This document shows positions 45,681 through 63,809 of a stretch of 64,000 nt of DNA, in pieces; within the stretch, counting starts at the first letter, position 1, and each line of letters begins with the position of its first letter. Origin of the DNA: Bacteroidota bacterium (GTDB lineage Bacteria > Bacteroidota > Bacteroidia > AKYH767-A > 2013-40CM-41-45); contig QQVM01000021.1 in the NCBI GenBank assembly GCA_003389385.1, positions 73,920-137,919 on the forward strand, written 5' to 3'. A program made the translations under genes and the position numbers. The notes under the pieces are model-generated. The model was not told where the DNA came from. It saw nothing but the letters and a program-made list of their open reading frames with translations, and did not search any database.

Positions 45681-47726
45681 ATGGCTTTATTCAGAAAAGC
45701 TTTTTTAGTTGTGCATAGAAGCAAAGCAGTCATCCTGCTTTCAATATTGTTTTTTTTTTCCTGCAGTTGTGAAACAAGAGATTCTAAGGAACAAATTCCT
45801 AAGTACGCCTCTTTGTCTGATTCTACAGAATATGTCGGAATGCAAACCTGCAGGCAATGTCACAGTGACATTTATAACACTTACATAAATACAGGCATGG
45901 GCCAATCATTTGACTATGCCACAGGAAAGAAATCCTCTGCTGATTTTTCCGGAGATGCGCTTGTACGGGATATCCACAAAAATTTCTTATATCACACGGA
46001 ATTGAAAGGAGATTCGCTTTTTCTGAAGGAATTCAGAATGAGTGGAGGAGATACAGTTTACCAAAGCAACAGAAAGCTCGATTATATAGTAGGCAGCGGA
46101 CAGCACACCAATTCTCATCTCTGGCTGAGCGGACAATATTTATACCAGGCGCCGGTAACATTTTACACTCAAAAAGGAATATGGGATCTGCCTCCTGGTT
46201 TTGAAGGCGGCTTTAATTCAAGGTTTGGAAGAAAGATCGAACTTGAGTGTATTTCATGCCATAATGGATTGCCTAAAATAGTTCCAGGTTCACAAAATAA
46301 GTATGAGTTAATTCCCAATGGAATCGACTGTGAAAGATGTCATGGGCCCGGAAAGAAACATGTGGATGATAAACTCAAAGGCATACGAATTGACACCTCA
46401 AAATACATCGACTACAGCATAGTTAACCCTTCTAAGTTGCCGATAGATTTACAGCTTGACGTGTGTCAGCGCTGTCACATACAAGGCAACGCTGTGCTGA
46501 ATGAAGGAAAAACTTTTCTTGATTTCAGGCCCGGGATGAAATTGTCTGATGTGATGAATGTTTTTATGCCTGTATATAAGGGGCAAGAAAATGAACATAT
46601 AATGGCCTCTCACAGTGAGAGAATGAAAATGAGTGAGTGTTATAAAGTTTCAATTCAAAGTACTCACACCAATCCGAAGGATAATGAGCTTAAGCCTTAT
46701 AAATCTGCCATGACATGCATTACTTGTCATAATCCGCATGTTAGTGTAAAGGTCACAGGTTTTGATAATTATAACAATGCCTGCAATTCCTGCCATGGAG
46801 GAGCTGTTGCACAAGGTTTAAAAAATCATTCAGTATTATGCAGTATGCCAGAGAAAGACAGGCTGGCAGCAGGAAACAACTGCGTTTCATGTCATATGAA
46901 AAAGAACACAACCATTGACATTCCCCATGTTAGCTCTACGGATCATTTTATTCGAAAACCTGTTAATGAAAAAGAAAAGGAAAGCATAAGGGAGTTTTTA
47001 GCACTTGTTTGCATTAATAATCCCAATGCAGATTCCATTGCGACAGGCAAAGCCTATCTTTCGTACTTCGAAAAATTTGTTTCCAATAAGGTATACCTCG
47101 ATTCAGCTGAAAGATATCTGATTAAGCCGGTTATGCGAATGCCTGAAGCCTACATTCACTTGTTGGTACGATTGTACTTTCTGAAGAATGAATACCTGAA
47201 GGTAAAGGAGTTAAGACGATTCGCAGACAAATATCTGGCACGTGCCAAAGGTCCGGATGTCAGCAATGAACATGCATGGTGCGCCTACCGTCTGGGTGAG
47301 TCATTTTATAAGTCAGGCGATCTTATAAATTCTAAAATGTATTTTTCCCTGGCTGTAGAGCTTGCGCCCTTCATTCCGGAGTTCAGAAATAAGTTTGCAA
47401 GTGTGCTTCATGACGCTGGAAAAACGGAAGAATCAATAAAGCAGTATCAAATAATCATTCGTGAAAATCCGGAATACATCTCTTCATATACAAGCTTAGG
47501 CTTCATACTGCTTTCAGAAAAATCCGATGCAGCTAAGGCGGAAGAATTGTTCAATAGCGCTCTTAAACTGGACCCGGATAATGTGCCAGCATTGCTCAAT
47601 ATGGCAGGTTTAAAGCTTTACTCAGGCAGGAAAGCAGAAGCCCTGGCCCTGTTAGGCAGAGTGCTGCAGATTGACCCTAAAAACAGTGAGGCCTCTGCAC
47701 TGAAAAACAAACTGAAGAATAACTGA
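45681..47726 (+). CDS. heptaheme c-type cytochrome fused to C-terminal TPR repeats, probable lipoprotein
   Basis: Seven CxxCH motifs: CRQCH (nt 45849..45863), CISCH, CERCH, CQRCH, CITCH, CNSCH, CVSCH. All lie within the first about 410 aa. The C-terminal about 250 aa are TPR-like. The N-terminus ILLSILFFFSCSC is lipoprotein-like. Confidence 0.8.
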   Translation: MALFRKAFLVVHRSKAVILLSILFFFSCSCETRDSKEQIPKYASLSDSTEYVGMQTCRQCHSDIYNTYINTGMGQSFDYATGKKSSADFSGDALVRDIHKNFLYHTELKGDSLFLKEFRMSGGDTVYQSNRKLDYIVGSGQHTNSHLWLSGQYLYQAPVTFYTQKGIWDLPPGFEGGFNSRFGRKIELECISCHNGLPKIVPGSQNKYELIPNGIDCERCHGPGKKHVDDKLKGIRIDTSKYIDYSIVNPSKLPIDLQLDVCQRCHIQGNAVLNEGKTFLDFRPGMKLSDVMNVFMPVYKGQENEHIMASHSERMKMSECYKVSIQSTHTNPKDNELKPYKSAMTCITCHNPHVSVKVTGFDNYNNACNSCHGGAVAQGLKNHSVLCSMPEKDRLAAGNNCVSCHMKKNTTIDIPHVSSTDHFIRKPVNEKEKESIREFLALVCINNPNADSIATGKAYLSYFEKFVSNKVYLDSAERYLIKPVMRMPEAYIHLLVRLYFLKNEYLKVKELRRFADKYLARAKGPDVSNEHAWCAYRLGESFYKSGDLINSKMYFSLAVELAPFIPEFRNKFASVLHDAGKTEESIKQYQIIIRENPEYISSYTSLGFILLSEKSDAAKAEELFNSALKLDPDNVPALLNMAGLKLYSGRKAEALALLGRVLQIDPKNSEASALKNKLKNN

Positions 47727-50231: not shown

Positions 50232-50678
50232 TTAGAATTGTTTTGACATTCTGTAATGCTTGATTTGCCCAAATAAAGTGTAAGAGTCAGCGATTATTTT
50301 GTATCCGTTTTTTTCATAGAAAGCCAGGGCATTTTCTCTGGCATCCAGGATAATTTCTTTTACACCTTTTTCAACACATGTATTTTCAATGTGACGAATG
50401 ATGCTTGAGCCAAGTCCTTCGCCTCTGAAATCTTCTCTGACAGCCATAGATCGGATCTGTGCCTGCAATGGTGTATTCCATTGAATTCTTCCACAGGCAA
50501 CAGCCTCAGAGTTGGAGTCCAGCATGAGAATATGTAAAGATTTTTGTTCGGCATCATCAAATGTCGCAGCAAACGGTTGTCCCCATGGTTTTCTTAGAAC
50601 TTCGTAGCGAAGACGGTAATATTTTTCAAGGTCTGAATCCGATTCTGCGGATATAATTCGAAAAGAACTTTTATTCAT
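50232..50678 (-). CDS. GNAT-family N-acetyltransferase
   Basis: VREDFRGEGLGSSII acetyl-CoA binding motif. Length 148 aa. Confidence 0.8.
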   Translation of the reverse strand: MNKSSFRIISAESDSDLEKYYRLRYEVLRKPWGQPFAATFDDAEQKSLHILMLDSNSEAVACGRIQWNTPLQAQIRSMAVREDFRGEGLGSSIIRHIENTCVEKGVKEIILDARENALAFYEKNGYKIIADSYTLFGQIKHYRMSKQF

Positions 50679-50690
50679 TTAACGATAGTG

Positions 50691-52079
50691 TTATTCCAGA
50701 GATATGTTTTCATCTCCGTTTTGATAAGGCATCCAGGAAATTATCAGCTGAAACATTTCATCTGTAGTTCGCATGCTTCCGGCTCTTTCTGTAACTGTTC
50801 TCGGTGGGTCAAATGGATTATTTGGATTAGCTGAGGTGTTGTCAAAGACACCGTGCACTTTAATAACAGAGCGTGCTGGAATTTTTTGGATCTTTTTATA
50901 AGTGTAAAAATACTGCCACTTGAAATCCCATTCAGGGATTCTGATCAGCCTGATTGTATCTCCTGAGGGAGTCATAGCATATGCGTGAAAACTTTTCCCG
51001 AGCAAGTGCATGTGAGGATTTATCGTTACAATCGACATATCGGATGGTACGCGATATTCTGTGGTGAAACTCATCACTGTATCCGGTGGAATAATAAGAG
51101 GGGGATCTATGCGAGTGATGCCCGATGTTCCCAGAATCATTTCCTTGAGTGGTCTTTTAGGTGCAGAAGGGCTGAAGAAAATATTGAAACTGCTTTGGTC
51201 ACTTGTGTCTACAGGACTCGGACCATAATGCATGTTGTCAAGCAGGAGGACTCCCTGTTTAGTTACCTTAATTCCACCGATTCCTTCAGGATATAAAACA
51301 GGTTCTACCCCTGGAAGAAAATTGCTCACGGAAGGACTTAACAATGGATAAGTTCCATCATCATTCGGCAAGTCCAGCAGTTCATAAGCTTTTTGCTTAT
51401 CATGTTTTTCAGTGTCAACGTAGGGTAATCCTTTGGTGTGATCTGCTTTTTCACCACGATCATATTGAACTATGTGAGCATTCACGTGATGAACCAGTTT
51501 TTTATTTCCAGGAACAATTTCGATGGCTTTGATAAAAGTATCCTGAGGAAATTCGAAAGGAATTTTTAACATGTAAAATTTATCCTGATTATCTCCTTTG
51601 ATAAAAACAGGATTTGGAATTTGCAGCACCATGTCAGGTTTCCCAAGAAAGCTGTTGTCATGAAAAACAGGCAGGGGAGGGCTAAGCTTTGGATTTCCTT
51701 CAGGCGCACCGGCTTCTATCCAGTTGTTGATCAGAGATTTTTCATTGTGAGTCAGTGCTTTTTCACCTTTAAAAGAAACGTATTCAGGATCAGCCGGCCA
51801 TGGAGGCATTATTCCTGAATTTATTACGAGTTGAATTGTTTTCAAACGGCTTGTTACATCTTCAAATGTCAGAAGATTAATCGGTGCAGATGAACCGGGC
51901 CTGTGACAGGGACTGCACTTTGCATGAATGATCGGAGCAATGTGAACTGAATAAACAAGGTTTTGATCTGAAGTAGTATTTTCTGTCTGGCTGCATGAGG
52001 TTGCCAATATGAAAATACAGGTGAAGACCAAGCCTGTTTGGAGTAATCGAATTACCGGCATATTAAATCCTGAGTGCAA
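50691..52079 (-). CDS. c-type cytochrome domain fused to copper type II (PHM/DBH-like) monooxygenase core, probable lipoprotein
   Basis: N-terminus LATSCSQ. Heme motif HIAPIIHAKCSPCHRPGSSAPINLLTFEDV...IMPPWPAD. CuH-like LVHHVNAH. CuM-like NPHMHLLGKSF ... TDEMFQLII. Confidence 0.7.
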   Translation of the reverse strand: MHSGFNMPVIRLLQTGLVFTCIFILATSCSQTENTTSDQNLVYSVHIAPIIHAKCSPCHRPGSSAPINLLTFEDVTSRLKTIQLVINSGIMPPWPADPEYVSFKGEKALTHNEKSLINNWIEAGAPEGNPKLSPPLPVFHDNSFLGKPDMVLQIPNPVFIKGDNQDKFYMLKIPFEFPQDTFIKAIEIVPGNKKLVHHVNAHIVQYDRGEKADHTKGLPYVDTEKHDKQKAYELLDLPNDDGTYPLLSPSVSNFLPGVEPVLYPEGIGGIKVTKQGVLLLDNMHYGPSPVDTSDQSSFNIFFSPSAPKRPLKEMILGTSGITRIDPPLIIPPDTVMSFTTEYRVPSDMSIVTINPHMHLLGKSFHAYAMTPSGDTIRLIRIPEWDFKWQYFYTYKKIQKIPARSVIKVHGVFDNTSANPNNPFDPPRTVTERAGSMRTTDEMFQLIISWMPYQNGDENISLE

Positions 52080-52089
52080 ATTAAATTCT

Positions 52090-52698
52090 TCATTCGATGA
52101 TACAGCCTATCGCACGGGTTTTCTTCACTTGAATTTCTTTTCCCTGAAGAAATTCTTCGATGGCATTTTTCAAGTCATGAGTGCGCGCTTCACGCCTTTT
52201 CTTCCCAGGAGCGTACATCCAGTCATCCACTCTTCCCTGATACAATATTCTAGCTTTATTGTCCAGTAGAAACACCTCAGGAGAAATCACTGCGCCAAGT
52301 AAAGATACAATCATCTTATCAGGATCGCGAAGGAGCGGGAAGCGTATTTTATATCTTCTCTGATATGCTCTCATTTCTTCTGGTTTTCCATAGGGTCCTG
52401 GAAATACACCATATAATTTAATTCCGGCTTCAGAATATTTTTCATGAAACTCATTGAAGTTTTTAGAATAATTTTCACATGCAGGACAATCAGGAAGTAG
52501 GAATACAATTATACTGGCTTTGTTGGAAGCTAATTCGGAGAAATTGAAATTATTTCCGTCAATTGTTTTTAATTTCTGATCAAAGAGAATTCTTTGTTGT
52601 GCCAAGGAGTTCGATGATAAAAACAAAAGCGACAGACAGCAGATGCAGAGTAGAGATATGAGCTTTCCTGTCTTATATTTCATCAGTTGAATATTCAA
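52090..52698 (-). CDS. TlpA/ResA-like thiol:disulfide oxidoreductase (redoxin)
   Basis: Signal peptide and LLPDCPACENY CxxC. The start overlaps the 3' end of the downstream nuclease gene by 11-26 nt depending on which Met is used. Confidence 0.75.
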   Translation of the reverse strand: MNIQLMKYKTGKLISLLCICCLSLLFLSSNSLAQQRILFDQKLKTIDGNNFNFSELASNKASIIVFLLPDCPACENYSKNFNEFHEKYSEAGIKLYGVFPGPYGKPEEMRAYQRRYKIRFPLLRDPDKMIVSLLGAVISPEVFLLDNKARILYQGRVDDWMYAPGKKRREARTHDLKNAIEEFLQGKEIQVKKTRAIGCIIE

Positions 52699-54061
52699 GA
52701 ATTTTTGTTCCGGGATTGTGATCCAGATGATATTTGATTATTCGGTGAACATCCTTGTTATCCTGCTTATAGCTGACTGCAGACTGAATTGCTCCTATGG
52801 AATGGCCTGTGGATTCAGGATCAAAATATCCAAAGCCCAGATATCGTCCTTGTTCAATCTGCACAACGGTTTTTTCAGTATTGTTTCTGCCTTCACCGAT
52901 GATCATGAAATTCTGATGGCGGTACAAGAGGCTTGCAAGTGCTTTTTCAGCCCTTTGATTATAAAGCTCAGCCGTTTCCTTGCCTATACAAGCACCATTG
53001 CACAAATTCACACTATAATTAAAGCAGGCGTGTGAAATAGGATACAAACCGCAAAGTTTTTGGCAGAGATTAAATGCTTTTTGAAGACGGATAATCTGCT
53101 GCACAGCTTCTTCTTGAGTTCTGGCCATGCATACCGCGTTTATACCTTGCCTGAACTTTCCAGGTTTAAAATTTAAATAGCCCTGATCATCTTCCGATTG
53201 AATCACGCAATAATTGAAATAAGTGTTTTTCTGGGCGCGGTTAAACACAGGTTGAACAGTTTTAATCTCATCCGATTCGAGCAAAAGAGCAATCAATTCA
53301 TTGCCAGTAGATTCAAAAGAAACATCCCTGATCATATTACGCATTTCAAGCGCTTTTCTGCTTTGTTTATTTCTGAAGTGACTGAGGACTCGTTTTCTGA
53401 TATTATTGCTCTTTCCAATATAGATTATTGAGCCATCTTCGTTATAAAAATAATATACACCCGGACTTTCAGGGAGATTGTCTAGAATTCTGTGGTTGAA
53501 TTCGGGCGGAAAGCGGAGGTGGAGATAGTCATTTTTAACAGATTGCTGAATAAGCTCCTGCGAATTTTTTTGAGCAAGAAGTATTTCAAACAACTTTACT
53601 GTAGCCAGAGCGTCTCCGCCGGCTCTGTGGCGGCCGACAATTTCAATTCCTAATCCTGAACATAAATTTCCGAGGCTGTAAGATCTGAAACCAGGAATCA
53701 TCTTCCGACTCAGTTTCACCGTACATAAATAATCTCTGGAGTAGCTATAGCCAAGTGATTTGAATTCCTGTACTATGAAGGAATAATCAAAATTAGCGTT
53801 ATGAGCGACAATTGTAGCGCCTTCTGTAAACTGCACGATGTCTTTCGCGATTTCAAAAAAACGCGGCGCTTCCTGTACCATTTCATTATCAATTCCAGTA
53901 AGCCTGGTGATAAATGGAGGAATCATCATTTCGGGATTTATAAGAGTTACGTATTCGTCAACTACAGATTTTCCGTCATGAAGATATATGGCTATTTCAG
54001 TGATCTTGTCGTAACCTGAATTTCCGCCCGTAGTTTCTATGTCAAGTACTGCATAAAGCAT
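52673..54061 (-). CDS. DnaQ-like 3'-5' exonuclease fused to GIY-YIG nuclease domain
   Basis: Exo I VLDIETTGG, Exo II HNANFDYSF, Exo III HRAGGDALAT. Then GIY-YIG GVYYFYNEDGSIIYIGKSNNIRKR. Length 462 aa. Confidence 0.8.
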   Translation of the reverse strand: MLYAVLDIETTGGNSGYDKITEIAIYLHDGKSVVDEYVTLINPEMMIPPFITRLTGIDNEMVQEAPRFFEIAKDIVQFTEGATIVAHNANFDYSFIVQEFKSLGYSYSRDYLCTVKLSRKMIPGFRSYSLGNLCSGLGIEIVGRHRAGGDALATVKLFEILLAQKNSQELIQQSVKNDYLHLRFPPEFNHRILDNLPESPGVYYFYNEDGSIIYIGKSNNIRKRVLSHFRNKQSRKALEMRNMIRDVSFESTGNELIALLLESDEIKTVQPVFNRAQKNTYFNYCVIQSEDDQGYLNFKPGKFRQGINAVCMARTQEEAVQQIIRLQKAFNLCQKLCGLYPISHACFNYSVNLCNGACIGKETAELYNQRAEKALASLLYRHQNFMIIGEGRNNTEKTVVQIEQGRYLGFGYFDPESTGHSIGAIQSAVSYKQDNKDVHRIIKYHLDHNPGTKILEYSTDEI

Positions 54062-54125
54062 GAATAAGACGAATATAAAAAAAAGAGCAACATGATTATG
54101 TTGCTCTTTTCACAGAAATTCAATT

Positions 54126-55421
54126 TTACTCAACAATGAATCTGTCACCGAAGAGGTTTTGTCCTAATTCGTCAATTACAGTGTAGAAATACTGACCTGA
54201 AGCAAGTGAGCTGACAGAAATTCTGAATTCAGTGTGATTTCCGTTTTGGATTATATTCACGGGAACTTCAACAATCCTGTATCTGCTGTCCGCGATAAGA
54301 AGTACCGGATTTTTTAACGGCTCTTTAGTTTCGACAGAGAGGTTGCTGAAGTTTCGCGCAGGATTCGGATAAAAGTTTTTGCTGATTACGACAGGTGCTA
54401 CTTCCATCACGTCTATTGTATTGGCTGATATTGCAACTCGATTCATGTTTGTGGCACCGTTCGCTGTAAAATCACCTCCAACAATCACCTTACCATTCTG
54501 ATATGCCATAGCATAAATTGCACCGTTCAAGCTACTACCTTCTGAGAAAAGGGGTGATCCGGAAATATTAGCAGAAAAGAAGTACGGTATGGAACTGCCA
54601 TTTGACGGAGATGTCGTGAAAGATCCACCGCCGAAAAGTTTCAATGGAGTTGCCATAAGACTAAGGAGGTGATTATTGAGAGAGTATACTGCAGTACCGA
54701 TTGAACCTGAAAGGTAGCTTGCAAAATATTGTCCTGGAGAATTGAAACGTCCTCCAATGTATAATCTGCCATTGAAAGTAGCCAGAGTTAGTACTTCATT
54801 ATTGAGGCCACCTGACAGTGCAGTCCATGTACTGCCTGCAAGCCTTGACACTCCATTTGGAAATGAAGTGTGCAGACCGCCTATATAAATTTCACTATTA
54901 TATTTTGCTATGGCATTTACACTTCCGGCTGCAGGCTGATTTCCTACCTGACTGAAAGTTGAACCGTTATACAAACCAACACGGCTGATGTTAGTTGGAG
55001 CCAGTACGCCGAAATTTCCTACAAAGTATAGACCGGCCGCATCACTTAAAAAAGCATTTATGGCTCCATTAGTCAAGCCTCCGTTCACTTCCTGCCATGT
55101 TCCGCCAGTGAGAACTGCCAAGCGTTTCACGCTGTTCGCACCGCTTTGAGTGAAAGTGCCTCCAGCATACAGTTGTCCGTTGTGAACAACAAGAGCATTA
55201 ACGATTCCATCACTGAACCCGGCGCCGACCTGTTCCCAGGAAGCTCCGTTCCACTTAGCTACTCGTGAAGGTGAAGTGAATTCACCGCCGGCATAAATTT
55301 CATTATTAAATACAACGAGAGCCTTTACGCGTCCATTCAAACCTGTACCCATTGGTACAAAGCTTGAAATGGCTGTAAATGATAAAAAGAGGAAACTGAT
55401 GAGGAGTAAGCTTTTCTTCAT
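54126..55421 (-). CDS. secreted beta-propeller repeat protein with T9SS C-terminal sorting domain
   Basis: Signal peptide. Repeated about 45-aa units (VNALVVHNGQLYAGGTF, VNAIAKYNSEIYIGG, LTLATFNGRLYIGGRF). The C-terminal CTD is PNPARNFSNLSV...GQYFYTVIDELGQNLFGDRFIVE. Confidence 0.7.
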   Translation of the reverse strand: MKKSLLLISFLFLSFTAISSFVPMGTGLNGRVKALVVFNNEIYAGGEFTSPSRVAKWNGASWEQVGAGFSDGIVNALVVHNGQLYAGGTFTQSGANSVKRLAVLTGGTWQEVNGGLTNGAINAFLSDAAGLYFVGNFGVLAPTNISRVGLYNGSTFSQVGNQPAAGSVNAIAKYNSEIYIGGLHTSFPNGVSRLAGSTWTALSGGLNNEVLTLATFNGRLYIGGRFNSPGQYFASYLSGSIGTAVYSLNNHLLSLMATPLKLFGGGSFTTSPSNGSSIPYFFSANISGSPLFSEGSSLNGAIYAMAYQNGKVIVGGDFTANGATNMNRVAISANTIDVMEVAPVVISKNFYPNPARNFSNLSVETKEPLKNPVLLIADSRYRIVEVPVNIIQNGNHTEFRISVSSLASGQYFYTVIDELGQNLFGDRFIVE

Positions 55422-55485: not shown

Positions 55486-56943
55486 TTAAGGTGCTTTTTT
55501 ATAGATGAAGTTCAGTGCGTTACAGGAACTGAGATCTGAAGAAAGTCGCAAGATTCTGTCACGTTTGCCGTCATTAAATTGAATGGCAGCAGTATTAGGC
55601 GGGTTTCTTCCGAGGTTATTTGCGAAAAGCACCAGGAAGTTATTTGTGTCTTCTTTGAGCGTTAGTTTAATTTCCTTTTTCTTTTTTGTTACTCCATAGT
55701 TTTTAAGCAGCCAGCTTCCGTTGAAGAACAGCGACATGGTGTCACCGTCTACGTAGGAGTTGTCAAAAATGTAAACAATAATTTCCGGAGTATTAAGAAT
55801 GATGTTCTCAGAACTCTGCACTTTACGACCCTGAATAAACTCAGGTATGTTTTCCAAGTTAAGTCTTACAGTTGTATCATTGTTTGAGCTGATTTCGACT
55901 TCAGGTTTGCTAATTGATTCAGTGGCTTTTGTAATTTTATCAGGAGCGTCTTTCGGAATTTCGTCTTCAGGAAGGCTTATCCATTTTATAAGGCGTCCGT
56001 CCTTACCTGCGGTAAAAAGCGTTCGGCTGTCAGGTCCAAATGAAGAACAAGTCACCGGACCAGTATGACCAAAAATTTCCTGTTGCACTTTTTTTTCGAA
56101 GGGTCTCCAGACTCTTGCCCAGTTTCCGATCAATCCACTTACCATGATTTTGCCGTCAGGAGAGAAGTTCATCGGAGCAGGATTGCCGGCGCGGAACCAG
56201 TGATATGGAGTGAAGTCAAGTTGACCCAACTTGTATTTCCAGAATGCAATACTGCCTTCTTCATTCCATGAAACCAGCAAACTGTCGCCAATGAGGTGAA
56301 GATATTTTACGGATGAATTTCCGGTGTTTACTTCCTGGCGGATAATATCAGATCTGGTATTAAGCACTTTCAGCTTATTTCCGGCTGCGAATATCAGAGA
56401 GTTTCTGTCGGGAGTGATAATGGCAGCATTCAGCACTTCAGCGTCTTCCATCACCAAATTCACCTTTTGTGTGAGGTCAGATCTGGTTTTATACATCCTT
56501 CTCCCGGAGTTGAAATATATGAACCCGTCGGCGATTGAAAACAAAACAAAGTTCATGTTGCTGTAGTCCGGAGAAAAAATCCCCTGTATATACTCGTTCT
56601 TGTCGAAGTCGAAAATTTTAATTTCTCCGTCTGAGGTGGAGCTAATCATCAAGCGTCCATTTGAATTCAATCCAATGGTCTTTACTGCGTTTCCGTGTGC
56701 CTTGAAGCGCCTAAGCTCTTTTCCGTCACTGAGATCTCTGAAGGCTATTTCTCCGTTTTCATATCCACAAATGAGTTTATTGGAGTGAACATTTCTGAAA
56801 AGTGTGGTGACAGGAATTCCGGCATCTTCAAACCTTGTATGTTCGGTGAACTTCAGTTCCTCCGATAAGACGGCATATGTGAAATTCATCCATGAAGCAA
56901 CAATAACGATTAAAGATACAGTGGTACGGACTAATAATGCCAT
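55486..56943 (-). CDS. signal-anchored WD40 beta-propeller protein with unassigned C-terminal domain
   Basis: N-terminal hydrophobic segment, WD40-like blades (CGYENGEIAFRD, SSTSDGEIKIFD, TAGKDGRLIKW), then an about 130-aa C-terminal domain with no recognised motif. Confidence 0.6.
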   Translation of the reverse strand: MALLVRTTVSLIVIVASWMNFTYAVLSEELKFTEHTRFEDAGIPVTTLFRNVHSNKLICGYENGEIAFRDLSDGKELRRFKAHGNAVKTIGLNSNGRLMISSTSDGEIKIFDFDKNEYIQGIFSPDYSNMNFVLFSIADGFIYFNSGRRMYKTRSDLTQKVNLVMEDAEVLNAAIITPDRNSLIFAAGNKLKVLNTRSDIIRQEVNTGNSSVKYLHLIGDSLLVSWNEEGSIAFWKYKLGQLDFTPYHWFRAGNPAPMNFSPDGKIMVSGLIGNWARVWRPFEKKVQQEIFGHTGPVTCSSFGPDSRTLFTAGKDGRLIKWISLPEDEIPKDAPDKITKATESISKPEVEISSNNDTTVRLNLENIPEFIQGRKVQSSENIILNTPEIIVYIFDNSYVDGDTMSLFFNGSWLLKNYGVTKKKKEIKLTLKEDTNNFLVLFANNLGRNPPNTAAIQFNDGKRDRILRLSSDLSSCNALNFIYKKAP

Positions 56944-62111: not shown

Positions 62112-63809
62112 ATGGACAGAAGAGAATTCATTACACAAGCTATACCGGAGCGCAGGCAAAAGCAGGATTTTTCAGGGATGGCAAGAACCATAACAGGATT
62201 ATCGCCTTATACTGGCCCCTGGACAATTAATGAAGTAAGGCATCTGCTGAAGAGAACCATGTTCGGAGCCAGCATTCCTGATATGCAATATTTTCTTTCA
62301 CTGAACACTTCATCATCAGTAGCTGAACTTCTGGAACAGATAAATCATCCTCCTTACAATCCTCCTCAGCCCCCCCTCAACAATTATGATGCAACAAGTC
62401 CTGATGCAAATTGTCCGTTTGGACAAGCCTGGCCAGGCACACCTGATACACTTGCACCTGTTTCAACTGTAGGCGCCAGACGAAGAAGTCTGAAGAGCTG
62501 GTGGATAGGACTCCAGTTAAATCAATCCCGCAGTTTAAGGGAGAAAATGGTTCTCTTTTGGCACAACCACTTTGTAGTAGAATTGGATACGATTTCGGTA
62601 GGGACTTACAACTACAAATACAACGAATTGCTTCGACTGCACGCCCTAGGAAATTTCAAAACATTAGTAAGGGAGATCACAACTAACAGCACCATGCTGA
62701 AATACCTGAACGGTGAACAAAATACTGCGGCCGCTCCCAATGAAAATTATGCAAGAGAACTGCAGGAGCTGTTCACAGTAGGCAAGAATGCCAATGGCAC
62801 ACCGCCATATACAGAGGATGATGTAATTGCAGCAGCCAGGGTACTTACAGGATGGAGGAACGATCTAAGCGGAGGAGTGAATTCAGCCAACGGGTTCAAT
62901 TCTTACTTTGATCCATCCAGGCACGACAGCGGTAATAAACAGTTTTCCACTTATTACAATAACACTGTGATAACAGGCAGGAGCGGAGCTGCTGGAGCAA
63001 CTGAAACGGATGATTTGCTTGATATGATTTTTCAGAAAGACGATGTTGCTCTGAATCTCTGCCGCAAATTGTACAAGTTTTTTATTTACTATGAAATTGA
63101 TGCTGCCGCTGAGAATGATGTGATACAACCTTTGGCAAACATTTTCAGGAACAGTAATTATGAAATAGCCCCGGTTTTATCAGCACTGTTCAACAGTGAG
63201 CACTTTTTTGATTTTCTGAATATGGGTTGCCTCATCAAAGGGCCTCTTGACACATGCATCGGACTACTTCGTGAATTCAATGTGCAGTTTCCTTCTGCTT
63301 CGGATCTGGCTGCGCAATATGCTCAATGGGACAGGATGCGCTCCCAAGGTAGTACTCTTCAACAAAATCTTGGAAATCCACCCAATGTGGCAGGATGGCC
63401 GGCATACTATCAGGAGCCGTTGTTTCATGAGTTGTGGATCAACTCCGACACACTGCCCAAGCGAAACCAGTTCACTGACAGAATTCTGACCAGCGGTTAT
63501 ACCAATCTTGGGACAACCATCAAAGTTGACGTACTTTCTTATACGGCATCGCTCACCAATCCCGGTGATCCGTTGCAGTTGATTGAAGAGGTTTTGGCTT
63601 TGCATTACTCAATTGACGTGTCTGTGAATGTGAGGAATCATCTTCTTTCAATTTTACTTTCAGGGCAAGCGTTGAACTCATACTGGACGACAGCATGGGA
63701 TGACTATACAGGTGATCCGACCAATACAAGTTATGCTACGATCGTAAGAACGAGACTCGAAACTTTTTACAAGTACATTCTATCACTTTCTGAGTATCAA
63801 TTAAGCTAA
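62112..63809 (+). CDS. DUF1800-family protein
   Basis: FWHNHFVVE hallmark. 565 aa. It is followed 4 nt later by its usual DUF1501 partner. Confidence 0.75.
   Translation: MDRREFITQAIPERRQKQDFSGMARTITGLSPYTGPWTINEVRHLLKRTMFGASIPDMQYFLSLNTSSSVAELLEQINHPPYNPPQPPLNNYDATSPDANCPFGQAWPGTPDTLAPVSTVGARRRSLKSWWIGLQLNQSRSLREKMVLFWHNHFVVELDTISVGTYNYKYNELLRLHALGNFKTLVREITTNSTMLKYLNGEQNTAAAPNENYARELQELFTVGKNANGTPPYTEDDVIAAARVLTGWRNDLSGGVNSANGFNSYFDPSRHDSGNKQFSTYYNNTVITGRSGAAGATETDDLLDMIFQKDDVALNLCRKLYKFFIYYEIDAAAENDVIQPLANIFRNSNYEIAPVLSALFNSEHFFDFLNMGCLIKGPLDTCIGLLREFNVQFPSASDLAAQYAQWDRMRSQGSTLQQNLGNPPNVAGWPAYYQEPLFHELWINSDTLPKRNQFTDRILTSGYTNLGTTIKVDVLSYTASLTNPGDPLQLIEEVLALHYSIDVSVNVRNHLLSILLSGQALNSYWTTAWDDYTGDPTNTSYATIVRTRLETFYKYILSLSEYQLS

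What the first reader, a model, noticed from the sequence alone, without database searches (positions are those of the whole stretch)
50691..52698. Cytochrome c domain fused to a PHM/DBH-like copper monooxygenase core, paired with a TlpA-like redoxin
The 462-aa lipoprotein starts with a single CxxCH heme domain (KCSPCHRPG...MPPWPADPEY). It then carries the two histidine clusters and the Met of copper type II ascorbate-dependent monooxygenases: HH...H, H-x-H, and the Met in TDEMFQ. Eukaryotic PHM/DBH take electrons from ascorbate. A fused c-heme suggests a periplasmic cytochrome-driven copper monooxygenase instead. The partner gene upstream, which overlaps the next gene, is a secreted CPAC thioredoxin-fold protein. 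Substrate and role are unknown.
Basis: partly seen in the sequence, partly recalled or inferred. Interest (0 to 1): 0.6.

Follow-up and report, generated by a model that had tools for sequence, protein, structure and literature searches.

The report
Haem-fused bacterial PHM-like copper monooxygenase
A Bacteroidota lipoprotein joins a c-type haem domain to the copper core of the animal enzymes that amidate peptide hormones and make noradrenaline; it has a dedicated thiol-protein partner and belongs to a very large, uncharacterised bacterial family.

The parts
50691..52079 (-). Gene for the cytochrome c / PHM-like copper monooxygenase lipoprotein (462 aa from TTG; probable true start ATG at 52061, 456 aa = NCBI REJ82437.1)
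51993..52061 (-). Signal peptide and lipobox (MPVIRLLQTGLVFTCIFILATS|C; lipidated Cys29)
   Evidence: Read from the sequence; C29 is at least 90% conserved in 31 close relatives. The lipoprotein status is inferred, because no signal-peptide predictor was available.
51675..51968 (-). Monohaem cytochrome c domain (about residues 38-135; four helices)
51903..51917 (-). CSPCH haem c attachment motif (C55, C58, proximal ligand H59)
   Evidence: 64/64 conserved. These are the only cysteines in the mature protein.
51798..51809 (-). MPPW motif; Met91 is the probable distal haem ligand
   Evidence: M91 is 64/64 conserved and P92 is invariant. The role as haem ligand is inferred.
51165..51647 (-). CuH (electron-transfer) beta-sandwich domain, about residues 145-305
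51486..51491 (-). H197-H198, aligned with PHM H107/H108 (CuH ligands)
   Evidence: alignment; 64/64 and 63/64 conserved. The PDB H107A and H108A entries score 5.5-6 bits lower against the profile.
51228..51230 (-). H284 (NMHYGP), aligned with PHM H172 (third CuH ligand)
   Evidence: 63/64 conserved
50715..51164 (-). CuM (catalytic, O2-binding) beta-sandwich domain, about residues 306-455
51006..51014 (-). H356-M-H358 (NPHMHLLGK), aligned with PHM H242/H244 (VHTHHLGK; CuM ligands)
   Evidence: both 64/64 conserved
50913..50915 (-). Q389 (WDFxWQ), aligned with PHM Q272
   Evidence: 64/64 conserved. The PDB Q272E and Q272A entries score lower against the profile.
50754..50756 (-). M442 (TDEM), aligned with PHM M314 (CuM thioether ligand)
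   Evidence: 63/64 conserved and E441 64/64. The PDB M314I entry scores lower against the profile.
52090..52698 (-). Gene for the secreted thioredoxin-fold partner (202 aa from TTG; 197 aa from the ATG at 52683 = NCBI DWQ44_12435)
   Evidence: Pfam AhpC-TSA 56.5 bits and Redoxin 41.6 bits. Best PDB relatives are 2cvb, 3u5r and 2ywi. Adjacent in 55/81 loci.
52477..52488 (-). C71-P-A-C74 of the redoxin. Only C71-P72 is invariant; C74 is Ser/Ala in many orthologues.
52102..52107 (-). G198-C199, invariant C-terminal 'IGC' motif of the redoxin; probable partner of C71
   Evidence: 60/60 conserved. Shared with 2cvb, 3u5r and 2ywi.
54080..54111 (-). Terminator-like hairpin (14 bp stem) upstream of the exonuclease gene. 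It is the probable upstream boundary of the co-directional run exonuclease-redoxin-monooxygenase-GNAT.
   Evidence: No terminator-like site was found on the minus strand between these four genes.

Best explanation
The 462-aa product is a lipid-anchored enzyme of the cell envelope, built from two redox modules. The C-terminal two-thirds is a PHM/DBH-type 'non-coupled binuclear' copper monooxygenase. One beta-sandwich holds an electron-transfer copper (CuH: H197, H198, H284). The second holds the catalytic copper (CuM: H356, H358, M442), where O2 is activated and a C-H bond of the substrate is hydroxylated. The N-terminal third is a monohaem c-type cytochrome (haem on C55/C58, axial ligands H59 and probably M91). 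It most likely serves as the built-in one-electron entry point, taking the place of the ascorbate used by the animal enzymes: haem to CuH, then to CuM, two electrons per turnover. The haem would be reduced by periplasmic redox carriers. The substrate is not a C-terminal glycine peptide, because PHM's carboxylate-binding residues are not conserved. The co-transcribed thioredoxin-fold protein is a dedicated accessory of this enzyme. It has an invariant Cys71/Cys199 pair in place of a CxxC motif. Its exact task could be thiol-based reductant supply, maturation or metallation, or peroxide control, and this is not resolved. What is shown: domain composition, fold, ligand conservation, and the gene linkage and fusions. 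What is inferred: metal occupancy, the direction of electron flow, the oxygenase chemistry and the localisation.
Against: No metal, spectroscopic or activity data exist. The window protein alone fails the Pfam gathering thresholds, and the close-family profile alone does not reach PHM in the PDB, so the homology is remote (14-17% identity). About 19 of 74 informative loci lack an adjacent redoxin, so the partner is not obligatory in cis. About 40% of family representatives carry a T9SS sorting domain. That would place a haem-dependent enzyme on the cell surface, where no respiratory electron donor is known, which is awkward for a simple 'respiratory cytochrome feeds the haem' picture. The AF2 model has low confidence around Met91 (residues 90-106). 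The haem-CuH distance could not be measured with these tools.
Confidence: 0.7

Rival explanations
1. Three-module thiol-driven relay. The redoxin's Cys71/Cys199 dithiol is recharged by a CcdA/DsbD-type membrane reductase. It is itself the physiological reductant: dithiol to haem c, to CuH, to CuM. It supplies exactly the two electrons needed per hydroxylation, so ascorbate is replaced by a protein thiol.
For: Fusions keep the order redoxin-haem-copper. The redoxin's terminal Cys lies a constant 26-28 residues before the CxxCH in four independent units. The module is duplicated as a unit in a tandem array. This would also explain how T9SS-exported or otherwise isolated enzymes obtain electrons. 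Periplasmic Prx/Trx-like proteins fed by DsbD-type transporters are known (PMC3322552, listed; only the abstract was read).
Against: Electron transfer from a protein dithiol to a c-haem has no well-established enzymatic precedent that I know of. One fusion has the redoxin at the C-terminus. About a quarter of loci lack an adjacent redoxin. No CcdA/DsbD gene lies in the window flanks that were examined.
Confidence: 0.25
2. The redoxin is a maturation factor and takes no part in turnover. Either it keeps the two CxxCH cysteines reduced for haem ligation (a private ResA/CcmG-like role), or it delivers Cu(I) to the CuH and CuM sites through its two cysteines (a Sco-like role).
For: The only cysteines in the mature enzyme are the CxxCH pair, so these are the only thiol targets in it. 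ResA and StoA are the best NCBIfam hits. In one relative the redoxin position is taken by an overlapping DUF420/CtaM gene, and CtaM is a factor linked to late (possibly CuB) assembly of haem-copper oxidases (PMC9145763).
Against: The CxxC motif needed for ResA/CcmG chemistry is not conserved. ResA and StoA scores are far below their cut-offs (22-27 bits against 170-210). No conserved His or Met and no CxxxC motif is present as in Sco. A covalently fused assembly factor repeated in every unit of a tandem array would be unusual. Other c-type cytochromes in the window, such as the 7-haem protein at 45681-47726, have no private redoxin.
Confidence: 0.25
3. The enzyme runs as an oxidase, peroxidase or peroxygenase and not as a monooxygenase fed through the haem. 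Examples: the haem is the exit for electrons taken from a substrate, or H2O2 is the co-substrate as in LPMOs, with the peroxiredoxin-like partner controlling the peroxide level.
For: The partner's conserved Cys aligns within the AhpC/TSA model, and JGI names relatives 'peroxiredoxin'. The surface-exported members lack an obvious electron donor. PHM-type enzymes can leak H2O2 when uncoupled (established knowledge).
Against: Both copper sites, the Met ligand and Q272 are conserved exactly as in O2-activating PHM/DBH. The position three residues before Cys71, where the peroxiredoxin motif PxxxTxxC has its Thr, is not a conserved Thr or Ser in the motif strings (L/S/A/G/D).
Confidence: 0.12
4. It is a true bacterial peptidylglycine alpha-hydroxylating monooxygenase that amidates peptides.
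For: PHM is the best fold and sequence match.
Against: The positions of PHM R240 and Y318, which bind the substrate C-terminal carboxylate, are N/S/Q/M/A and I/Y/V/F/M. They are variable across the family. No PAL-like lyase is adjacent: the neighbouring beta-propellers hit Rax2/DUF5122 and WD40 models, not NHL. No precursor-peptide-like gene is conserved next to it.
Confidence: 0.04
5. The resemblance is superficial: an unrelated beta-sandwich (for example PNGase F-like or a carbohydrate-binding module) with chance His/Met motifs.
For: The window protein alone is below Pfam thresholds. Identity to PHM is only 14-17%.
Confidence: 0.02

Closest known systems
Peptidylglycine alpha-hydroxylating monooxygenase (PHM, catalytic core of PAM; PDB 1phm, 1opm, 1sdw)
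   Different: It is bacterial and lipoprotein-anchored. It carries a fused c-type haem domain that PHM lacks. It has none of PHM's disulfides, since the only Cys residues are the haem-binding pair. The R240/Y318 substrate-carboxylate site is absent. No PAL partner is present. Identity is about 15%. No ascorbate pool is known in the bacterial periplasm.
Dopamine beta-hydroxylase / tyramine beta-monooxygenase / MOXD1 (PDB 4zel)
   Same: The best sequence hit of the family profile (E=1.1e-9). The same catalytic core. Like this protein, DBH has an extra N-terminal domain placed before the CuH domain.
   Different: DBH's N-terminal domain is a DOMON beta-sandwich. It shares its fold with the haem domain of cellobiose dehydrogenase but has no haem ligands (PMC4846438). 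Here the N-terminal domain is an all-helical c-type cytochrome with a covalent-haem motif. The DBH dimerisation domain is absent.
Cellobiose dehydrogenase cytochrome domain feeding lytic polysaccharide monooxygenases (functional analogy only)
   Same: A haem domain that hands single electrons to a mononuclear copper oxygenase site outside the cytoplasm. Many family members are exported by the T9SS (30/75) and carry PKD or Ig domains, like secreted polymer-active enzymes.
   Different: There is no homology. CDH uses a b-type haem in a DOMON fold on a separate protein, and LPMO has a histidine-brace copper. This is an analogy drawn from my own knowledge and was not tested.
Thermus thermophilus TTHA0593 (PDB 2cvb/2ywo), 3u5r and 2ywi: uncharacterised 'PRX-like' thioredoxin-fold proteins
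   Same: The best PDB relatives of the partner (E from 7e-16 to 1.5e-10). They align end to end and share the CP cysteine and the C-terminal IGC motif.
   Different: Those proteins come from organisms not shown to have the monooxygenase, and their function is unknown. TTHA0593 appears in the searchable literature only as a crystallography test case.
TlpA / ResA / CcmG periplasmic thiol-disulfide oxidoreductases
   Same: Secreted thioredoxin fold. The window copy does carry a CxxC motif (CPAC).
   Different: The second Cys is not conserved among orthologues or fused forms. An invariant C-terminal Cys is present that these families lack. NCBIfam ResA and StoA scores are about 10 times below their cut-offs.

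Membership tests
Copper type II ascorbate-dependent monooxygenases (PHM/DBH/TBM; Pfam PF01082 + PF03712) | Two consecutive jelly-roll beta-sandwich domains with PHM topology | tested here: met
Copper type II ascorbate-dependent monooxygenases (PHM/DBH/TBM; Pfam PF01082 + PF03712) | CuH site: HH pair plus a distal His (PHM H107, H108, H172) | tested here: met
   H197, H198 and H284 align to them. They are conserved 64, 63 and 63 of 64.
Copper type II ascorbate-dependent monooxygenases (PHM/DBH/TBM; Pfam PF01082 + PF03712) | CuM site: HxH plus Met (PHM H242, H244, M314) | tested here: met
   H356, H358 and M442 align to them. They are conserved 64, 64 and 63 of 64.
Copper type II ascorbate-dependent monooxygenases (PHM/DBH/TBM; Pfam PF01082 + PF03712) | Scores above the curated Pfam gathering thresholds | tested here: inconclusive
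   The window protein has PF03712 at 13.8 bits against 23 and no PF01082 hit. Homologues pass: PF01082 at 35.0 and 34.1 against 30, PF03712 at 33.8 against 23. At E<=1e-3, 46/75 hit PF03712 and 20/75 hit PF01082. The family profile reaches DBH and PHM at 1e-9 and 3e-7.
Copper type II ascorbate-dependent monooxygenases (PHM/DBH/TBM; Pfam PF01082 + PF03712) | Binds two Cu per core and hydroxylates a C-H bond with O2 | not testable with these tools
   Requires metal analysis and enzymology.
Copper type II ascorbate-dependent monooxygenases (PHM/DBH/TBM; Pfam PF01082 + PF03712) | Ascorbate as the physiological reductant | not testable with these tools
   The fused haem domain and the bacterial envelope location argue for a different donor. 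This is an inference.
PHM in the strict sense (peptidylglycine alpha-hydroxylase) | Substrate C-terminal carboxylate site (R240, Y318; N316 to the backbone) | tested here: not met
   The equivalent columns are N354 (N/S/Q/M/A), I446 (I/Y/V/F/M) and Q444 (variable).
c-type cytochromes (monohaem, His/Met) | CxxCH covalent haem-attachment motif | tested here: met
   C55, C58 and H59 are 64/64 conserved. 136/150 representatives carry the motif.
c-type cytochromes (monohaem, His/Met) | Conserved distal Met and a helical cytochrome c fold | tested here: met
TlpA/ResA/CcmG CxxC thiol-disulfide oxidoreductases | Thioredoxin fold, secreted | tested here: met
   AhpC-TSA 56.5 bits and Redoxin 41.6 bits, both above cut-off. 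An N-terminal signal sequence is visible in the translation.
TlpA/ResA/CcmG CxxC thiol-disulfide oxidoreductases | Conserved redox-active CxxC pair | tested here: not met
   The second Cys is Ser/Ala in about 25/60 orthologues and in all five fused domains (4 N-terminal units; the C-terminal P0246 domain). ResA and StoA NCBIfam scores are 22-27 bits against 170-210.
Peroxiredoxins (AhpC/TSA) | PxxxT/SxxC motif around the peroxidatic Cys | tested here: not met
   In the motif strings, the residue three positions before C71 is L/S/A/G/D and not a conserved Thr or Ser. The catalytic Arg was not examined.
TTHA0593 (2cvb)-type 'PRX-like' redoxins | CP cysteine plus a C-terminal IGC cysteine, with full-length similarity | tested here: met
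   E=7e-16 over residues 36-201, with both motifs aligned. C71-P72 is 59/60 and G198-C199 is 60/60 conserved.
Sco-type copper chaperones | CxxxC plus a conserved His as the copper site | tested here: not met
   No CxxxC motif is present, and no His appears among the columns conserved at 85% or more.

The most novel reading that the evidence does not exclude
The redoxin, the haem domain and the copper core form a self-contained three-step electron relay (protein dithiol to haem c to CuH/CuM). It powers C-H hydroxylation in the periplasm or, for the roughly 40% of members with a T9SS sorting signal, on the cell surface. This would be a bacterial copper oxygenase system that does for extracellular peptides, glycans or lipids what the LPMO/CDH pair does for polysaccharides. 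It might also represent the bacterial ancestry of the animal neuropeptide and catecholamine enzymes.
Probability: 0.18. Interest if true: 0.85.

Novelty: new variant of a known kind. Interest (0 to 1): 0.65.

Why it matters
PHM and DBH are textbook animal enzymes. A 2022 comparative study still described the PHM family as widespread in eukaryotes, in contrast to its bacterial clan-mate PNGase F (PMC8812541). This finding shows a bacterial clade of at least 11,697 sequence clusters and at least 563 species genomes that keeps the complete catalytic apparatus. In this clade, ascorbate dependence appears to be replaced by a covalently fused cytochrome c, with a dedicated thiol protein as partner.

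If that is right, three things follow:

1. It gives the copper-monooxygenase field a soluble bacterial model with a built-in optical reporter, the haem. That could be used on the long-debated question of how electrons reach CuH and cross to CuM.
2. It points to an unknown and widespread oxidative reaction in the Bacteroidota envelope or on the cell surface.
3. It offers a new scaffold for C-H hydroxylation biocatalysis that does not need ascorbate.

It also identifies a function-linked context for the orphan TTHA0593-type redoxin family.

Tried and rejected
- **Sequence searches that fell short.** Single-sequence phmmer against the PDB found nothing relevant. A profile of 31 close relatives also missed PHM. 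Only the wider 64-sequence profile reached it.
- **Locus scan with the diverse alignment.** As a result, the 80 loci sample only the clade at 50% identity or more.
- **afdb50.** The fold library was unavailable, so I have no UniProt names or taxonomy for structural neighbours.
- **Substrate clues from gene context: none.**
  - The GNAT, exonuclease, two-component system and multihaem cytochrome co-occur only within the closely related clade and disappear where synteny breaks.
  - Redoxin-less loci share a metallophosphoesterase and an LPG-synthase-like gene, which looks like lineage synteny.
  - The marine fused form sits among folP, cdaA and pyrD.
  - The window flanks are housekeeping genes.
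- **PAL-like lyase partner: rejected.** The neighbouring beta-propellers hit Rax2/DUF5122 and WD40 models, not NHL.
- **H202 and M436 as ligands: rejected.** They are conserved in only 8/64 and 31/64.
This was corrected. NCBI's 456-aa call includes it; only an alternative 372-aa call starting at M91 drops it.
- **Promoter scan.** The sigma-70 scan is not informative for Bacteroidota.
- **Literature.** Ten full-text searches found no description of a bacterial cytochrome c / PHM fusion. Subscription-only papers are not covered, so prior description cannot be excluded.
- **Redoxin search.** It was limited by the word index to 63 close hits and revealed no fusions. The fusions came from the exhaustive representative search.
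Full report
**1. The observation**

The minus strand carries four tightly packed co-directional ORFs:
- a DEDD-exonuclease/GIY-YIG gene (52673-54061);
- a 202-aa thioredoxin-fold gene (52090-52698);
- the 462-aa target (50691-52079);
- a GNAT acetyltransferase (50232-50678).

With the ATG starts used by NCBI (REJ82437.1, 456 aa), the redoxin start overlaps the exonuclease stop by 11 nt. Only 28 nt separate the redoxin stop from the target's ATG at 52061. A strong terminator-like hairpin lies just upstream of the exonuclease gene, and none lies within the four-gene run. The source is an uncultured Bacteroidota MAG (locus tags DWQ44_12430 and DWQ44_12435).

**2. Is the C-terminal part really PHM/DBH-like?**

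On its own the protein gives only sub-threshold Pfam hints: Cu2_monoox_C at E=0.041 (13.8 bits against a cut-off of 23) and Haem_bd at E=0.013. It has no PDB sequence hit. A profile of 31 close relatives still misses PHM. The family level is decisive.

- All 31 close relatives touch PF03712, the best at 5e-7.
- Representatives at 30-45% identity pass the curated cut-offs of both halves of the core: PF01082 at 35.0 and 34.1 bits against 30, PF03712 at 33.8 against 23.
- In an unbiased set of 75 representatives, 46 hit PF03712 and 20 hit PF01082 at E<=1e-3.
- A profile of 64 diverse members hits human DBH at E=1.1e-9 and rat PHM at E=3e-7.

In the printed alignment, whose numbering I checked by counting from the chain start:

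| Window residues | PHM residues |
|---|---|
| H197/H198 | H107/H108 |
| H284 (NMHYGP) | H172 (LQVHYGD) |
| H356/H358 (NPHMHLLGK) | H242/H244 (VHTHHLGK) |
| M442 (TDEM) | M314 (SDEM) |
| Q389 | Q272 |

The PDB supplies a control. Entries for PHM H107A, H108A, M314I and Q272E/A score 27.5, 27.1, 30.4 and 30.4 bits against 33.1 for wild type. So exactly these residues sit on conserved profile columns.

Across the 64 sequences the six ligands are conserved 63-64/64, and Q389 and E441 are 64/64. H202 (8/64) and M436 (31/64) are not conserved.

**3. The haem domain**

**4. What it is not**

PHM's substrate-carboxylate binders are not conserved. The R240 position is N/S/Q/M/A and the Y318 position is I/Y/V/F/M. 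No PAL-like lyase or precursor-peptide gene accompanies the enzyme. It has the PHM catalytic core without PHM's substrate site, so 'bacterial amidating enzyme' is unlikely.

**5. The partner**

*Linkage.* Among 81 loci from species-representative genomes, all uncultured Bacteroidota, a homologue of the window's redoxin lies directly upstream on the same strand in 55. About 20 of those 55 loci have lost every other gene shared with the window. Seven loci are truncated. About 19 intact loci have no redoxin within 5 kb. The gaps between the two genes are mostly -22 to +80 nt. The pairing persists at 34% identity (L089).

*Fusions.* Four of 150 representatives are natural fusions with this same redoxin subfamily (E from 1e-46 to 1e-56). 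Three have it N-terminal and one C-terminal. They occur in genomes of 28% and 58% GC. One locus holds at least four fused units in tandem. This is strong evidence for a functional link.

*Classification.* The 'CPAC TlpA-like' label does not hold.
- In 60 aligned sequences, C71-P72 (59/60) and the C-terminal G198-C199 (60/60) are invariant.
- The second Cys of CPAC is Ser or Ala in about 25 of them, including all four fused units in that alignment. The fifth fused domain, C-terminal in P0246, has Ala there.
- The closest solved relatives are the uncharacterised TTHA0593 (2cvb, E=7e-16), 3u5r and 2ywi. They share both the CP and the terminal IGC motifs.
- ResA is a weak hit (8.8e-5), and the NCBIfam ResA and StoA scores are about a tenth of their cut-offs.
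- There is no Sco-like CxxxC/His and no peroxiredoxin-type Thr at the position three before the Cys.

In the N-terminal fusions the terminal Cys sits a constant 26-28 residues before the CxxCH.

**6. Family size and spread**

The exhaustive search found 11,697 representatives at 50% clustering with E<=1e-3 and 1,653 with E<=1e-30. At least 563 GTDB species genomes carry a close relative. Of 75 representatives, 30 carry a T9SS C-terminal sorting domain. Others add PKD, Ig, TPR, EF-hand or Kunitz domains. Public names are 'hypothetical protein' or 'mono/diheme cytochrome c family protein'.

**7. Mechanism proposed**

The following steps are inferred. The cytochrome domain receives single electrons and reduces CuH. 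CuH reduces CuM. CuM binds O2 and hydroxylates an unknown substrate that is not a glycine-extended peptide.

This follows from the established PHM/DBH mechanism, in which two uncoupled coppers are each reduced by one electron from ascorbate. It also follows from the lack of a known ascorbate pool in the bacterial envelope, and from the general role of class-I-like c cytochromes as one-electron carriers. DBH offers a structural precedent for a redox-type domain in this position: its DOMON domain has the fold of the haem domain of cellobiose dehydrogenase but has lost any haem ligands (PMC4846438).

For the redoxin I consider three roles.
- **Thiol reductant feeding the haem.** The fixed short tether and the duplication of the whole module favour this.
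- **Maturation or metallation factor.** This is favoured by the fact that the only thiols in the enzyme are the CxxCH pair. It is also favoured by the single case where an overlapping DUF420/CtaM gene occupies the redoxin's place. CtaM is a late assembly factor of haem-copper oxidases, possibly for CuB (PMC9145763).
- **Peroxide control.**

The data do not decide among these three.

**8. Novelty**

I found no paper describing this architecture in ten full-text searches. Papers that cite PF03712 or PF01082 are all about animals. [quoted passage not shown] Database pipelines do tag PF03712 on some members, so the domain hit itself is not new. The new elements, as far as I can tell, are:
- recognition of a very large bacterial clade with a complete CuH/CuM site;
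- an obligatory fused c-haem;
- a linked CP...GC redoxin;
- frequent T9SS export.

I class it as a new variant of a known kind. Subscription-only literature was not searchable, so an earlier description cannot be excluded.

**9. Verdict**

Confidence is about 0.9 for the architecture and about 0.65-0.7 for the electron-input role of the haem. The substrate is unknown. Interest is 0.65.

Noticed in passing
window 45681-47726 (+): A 681-aa protein with seven CxxCH motifs (multihaem cytochrome c; weak hits to MtrC/DmsE-type decahaem families) is fused to C-terminal TPR repeats. It is syntenic with the monooxygenase in 25 related loci, but only within the close clade. It could be a periplasmic electron carrier, and no link to the monooxygenase was established.
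   Followed up: partly
window 52673-54061 (-): A DnaQ-like DEDD 3'-5' exonuclease is fused to a GIY-YIG (Cho/UvrC-N-like) nuclease domain. Its stop overlaps the redoxin start. It co-occurs with the pair only in the closely related clade (32/81 loci).
   Followed up: partly
L086:3439-4026 (upstream of P0124, 42% identical to the window enzyme): In this relative the redoxin's position is taken by a DUF420 (CtaM-family) membrane protein gene that overlaps the monooxygenase start by 26 nt. CtaM is implicated in late assembly of haem-copper oxidases, possibly CuB. This is a single case, and it was not found in the other 88 loci or in the window.
   Followed up: partly
L085:4171-13926: A tandem array of at least four redoxin-cytochrome c-monooxygenase units lies in a 58% GC genome (GCA_054033915.1). 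Two units are within one 1251-aa protein, one is in a 674-aa protein, and one more starts at the locus end. This suggests paralogue expansion, possibly for different substrates.
   Followed up: partly
family-wide (representatives P0121-P0270): About 40% (30/75) of diverse family members carry a T9SS C-terminal sorting domain, and some add PKD/Ig, TPR, EF-hand or Kunitz domains. A covalent-haem copper enzyme exported to the Bacteroidota cell surface raises the question of where its electrons come from.
   Followed up: partly
window 51810-52079 (-), gene-call discrepancy: One public gene call for this same sequence (P0001, 372 aa) starts at Met91 and so drops the whole haem-binding N-terminus. 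NCBI's 456-aa call keeps it. Automated annotation can therefore hide the cytochrome domain in this family.
   Followed up: yes
L031-L078 subset (19 loci), about 300-900 nt upstream of the monooxygenase, opposite strand: Where the redoxin is absent, a small (about 85-105 aa), very basic putative lipoprotein ending in ...GNRAYKRQLG.NR..LFGRRKPP is transcribed divergently. It has no Pfam hit and its function is unknown.
   Followed up: no
window 54126-55421 (-) and 55486-56943 (-): Two beta-propeller proteins lie upstream: one Rax2/DUF5122-like with a T9SS sorting domain, and one WD40-like with an extra C-terminal region. Neither hits NHL/PAL models, so there is no evidence for an amidating lyase partner.
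   Followed up: partly
window 62112-63809 (+): A DUF1800 protein (307 bits), a family of unknown function. It was not examined further.
   Followed up: no
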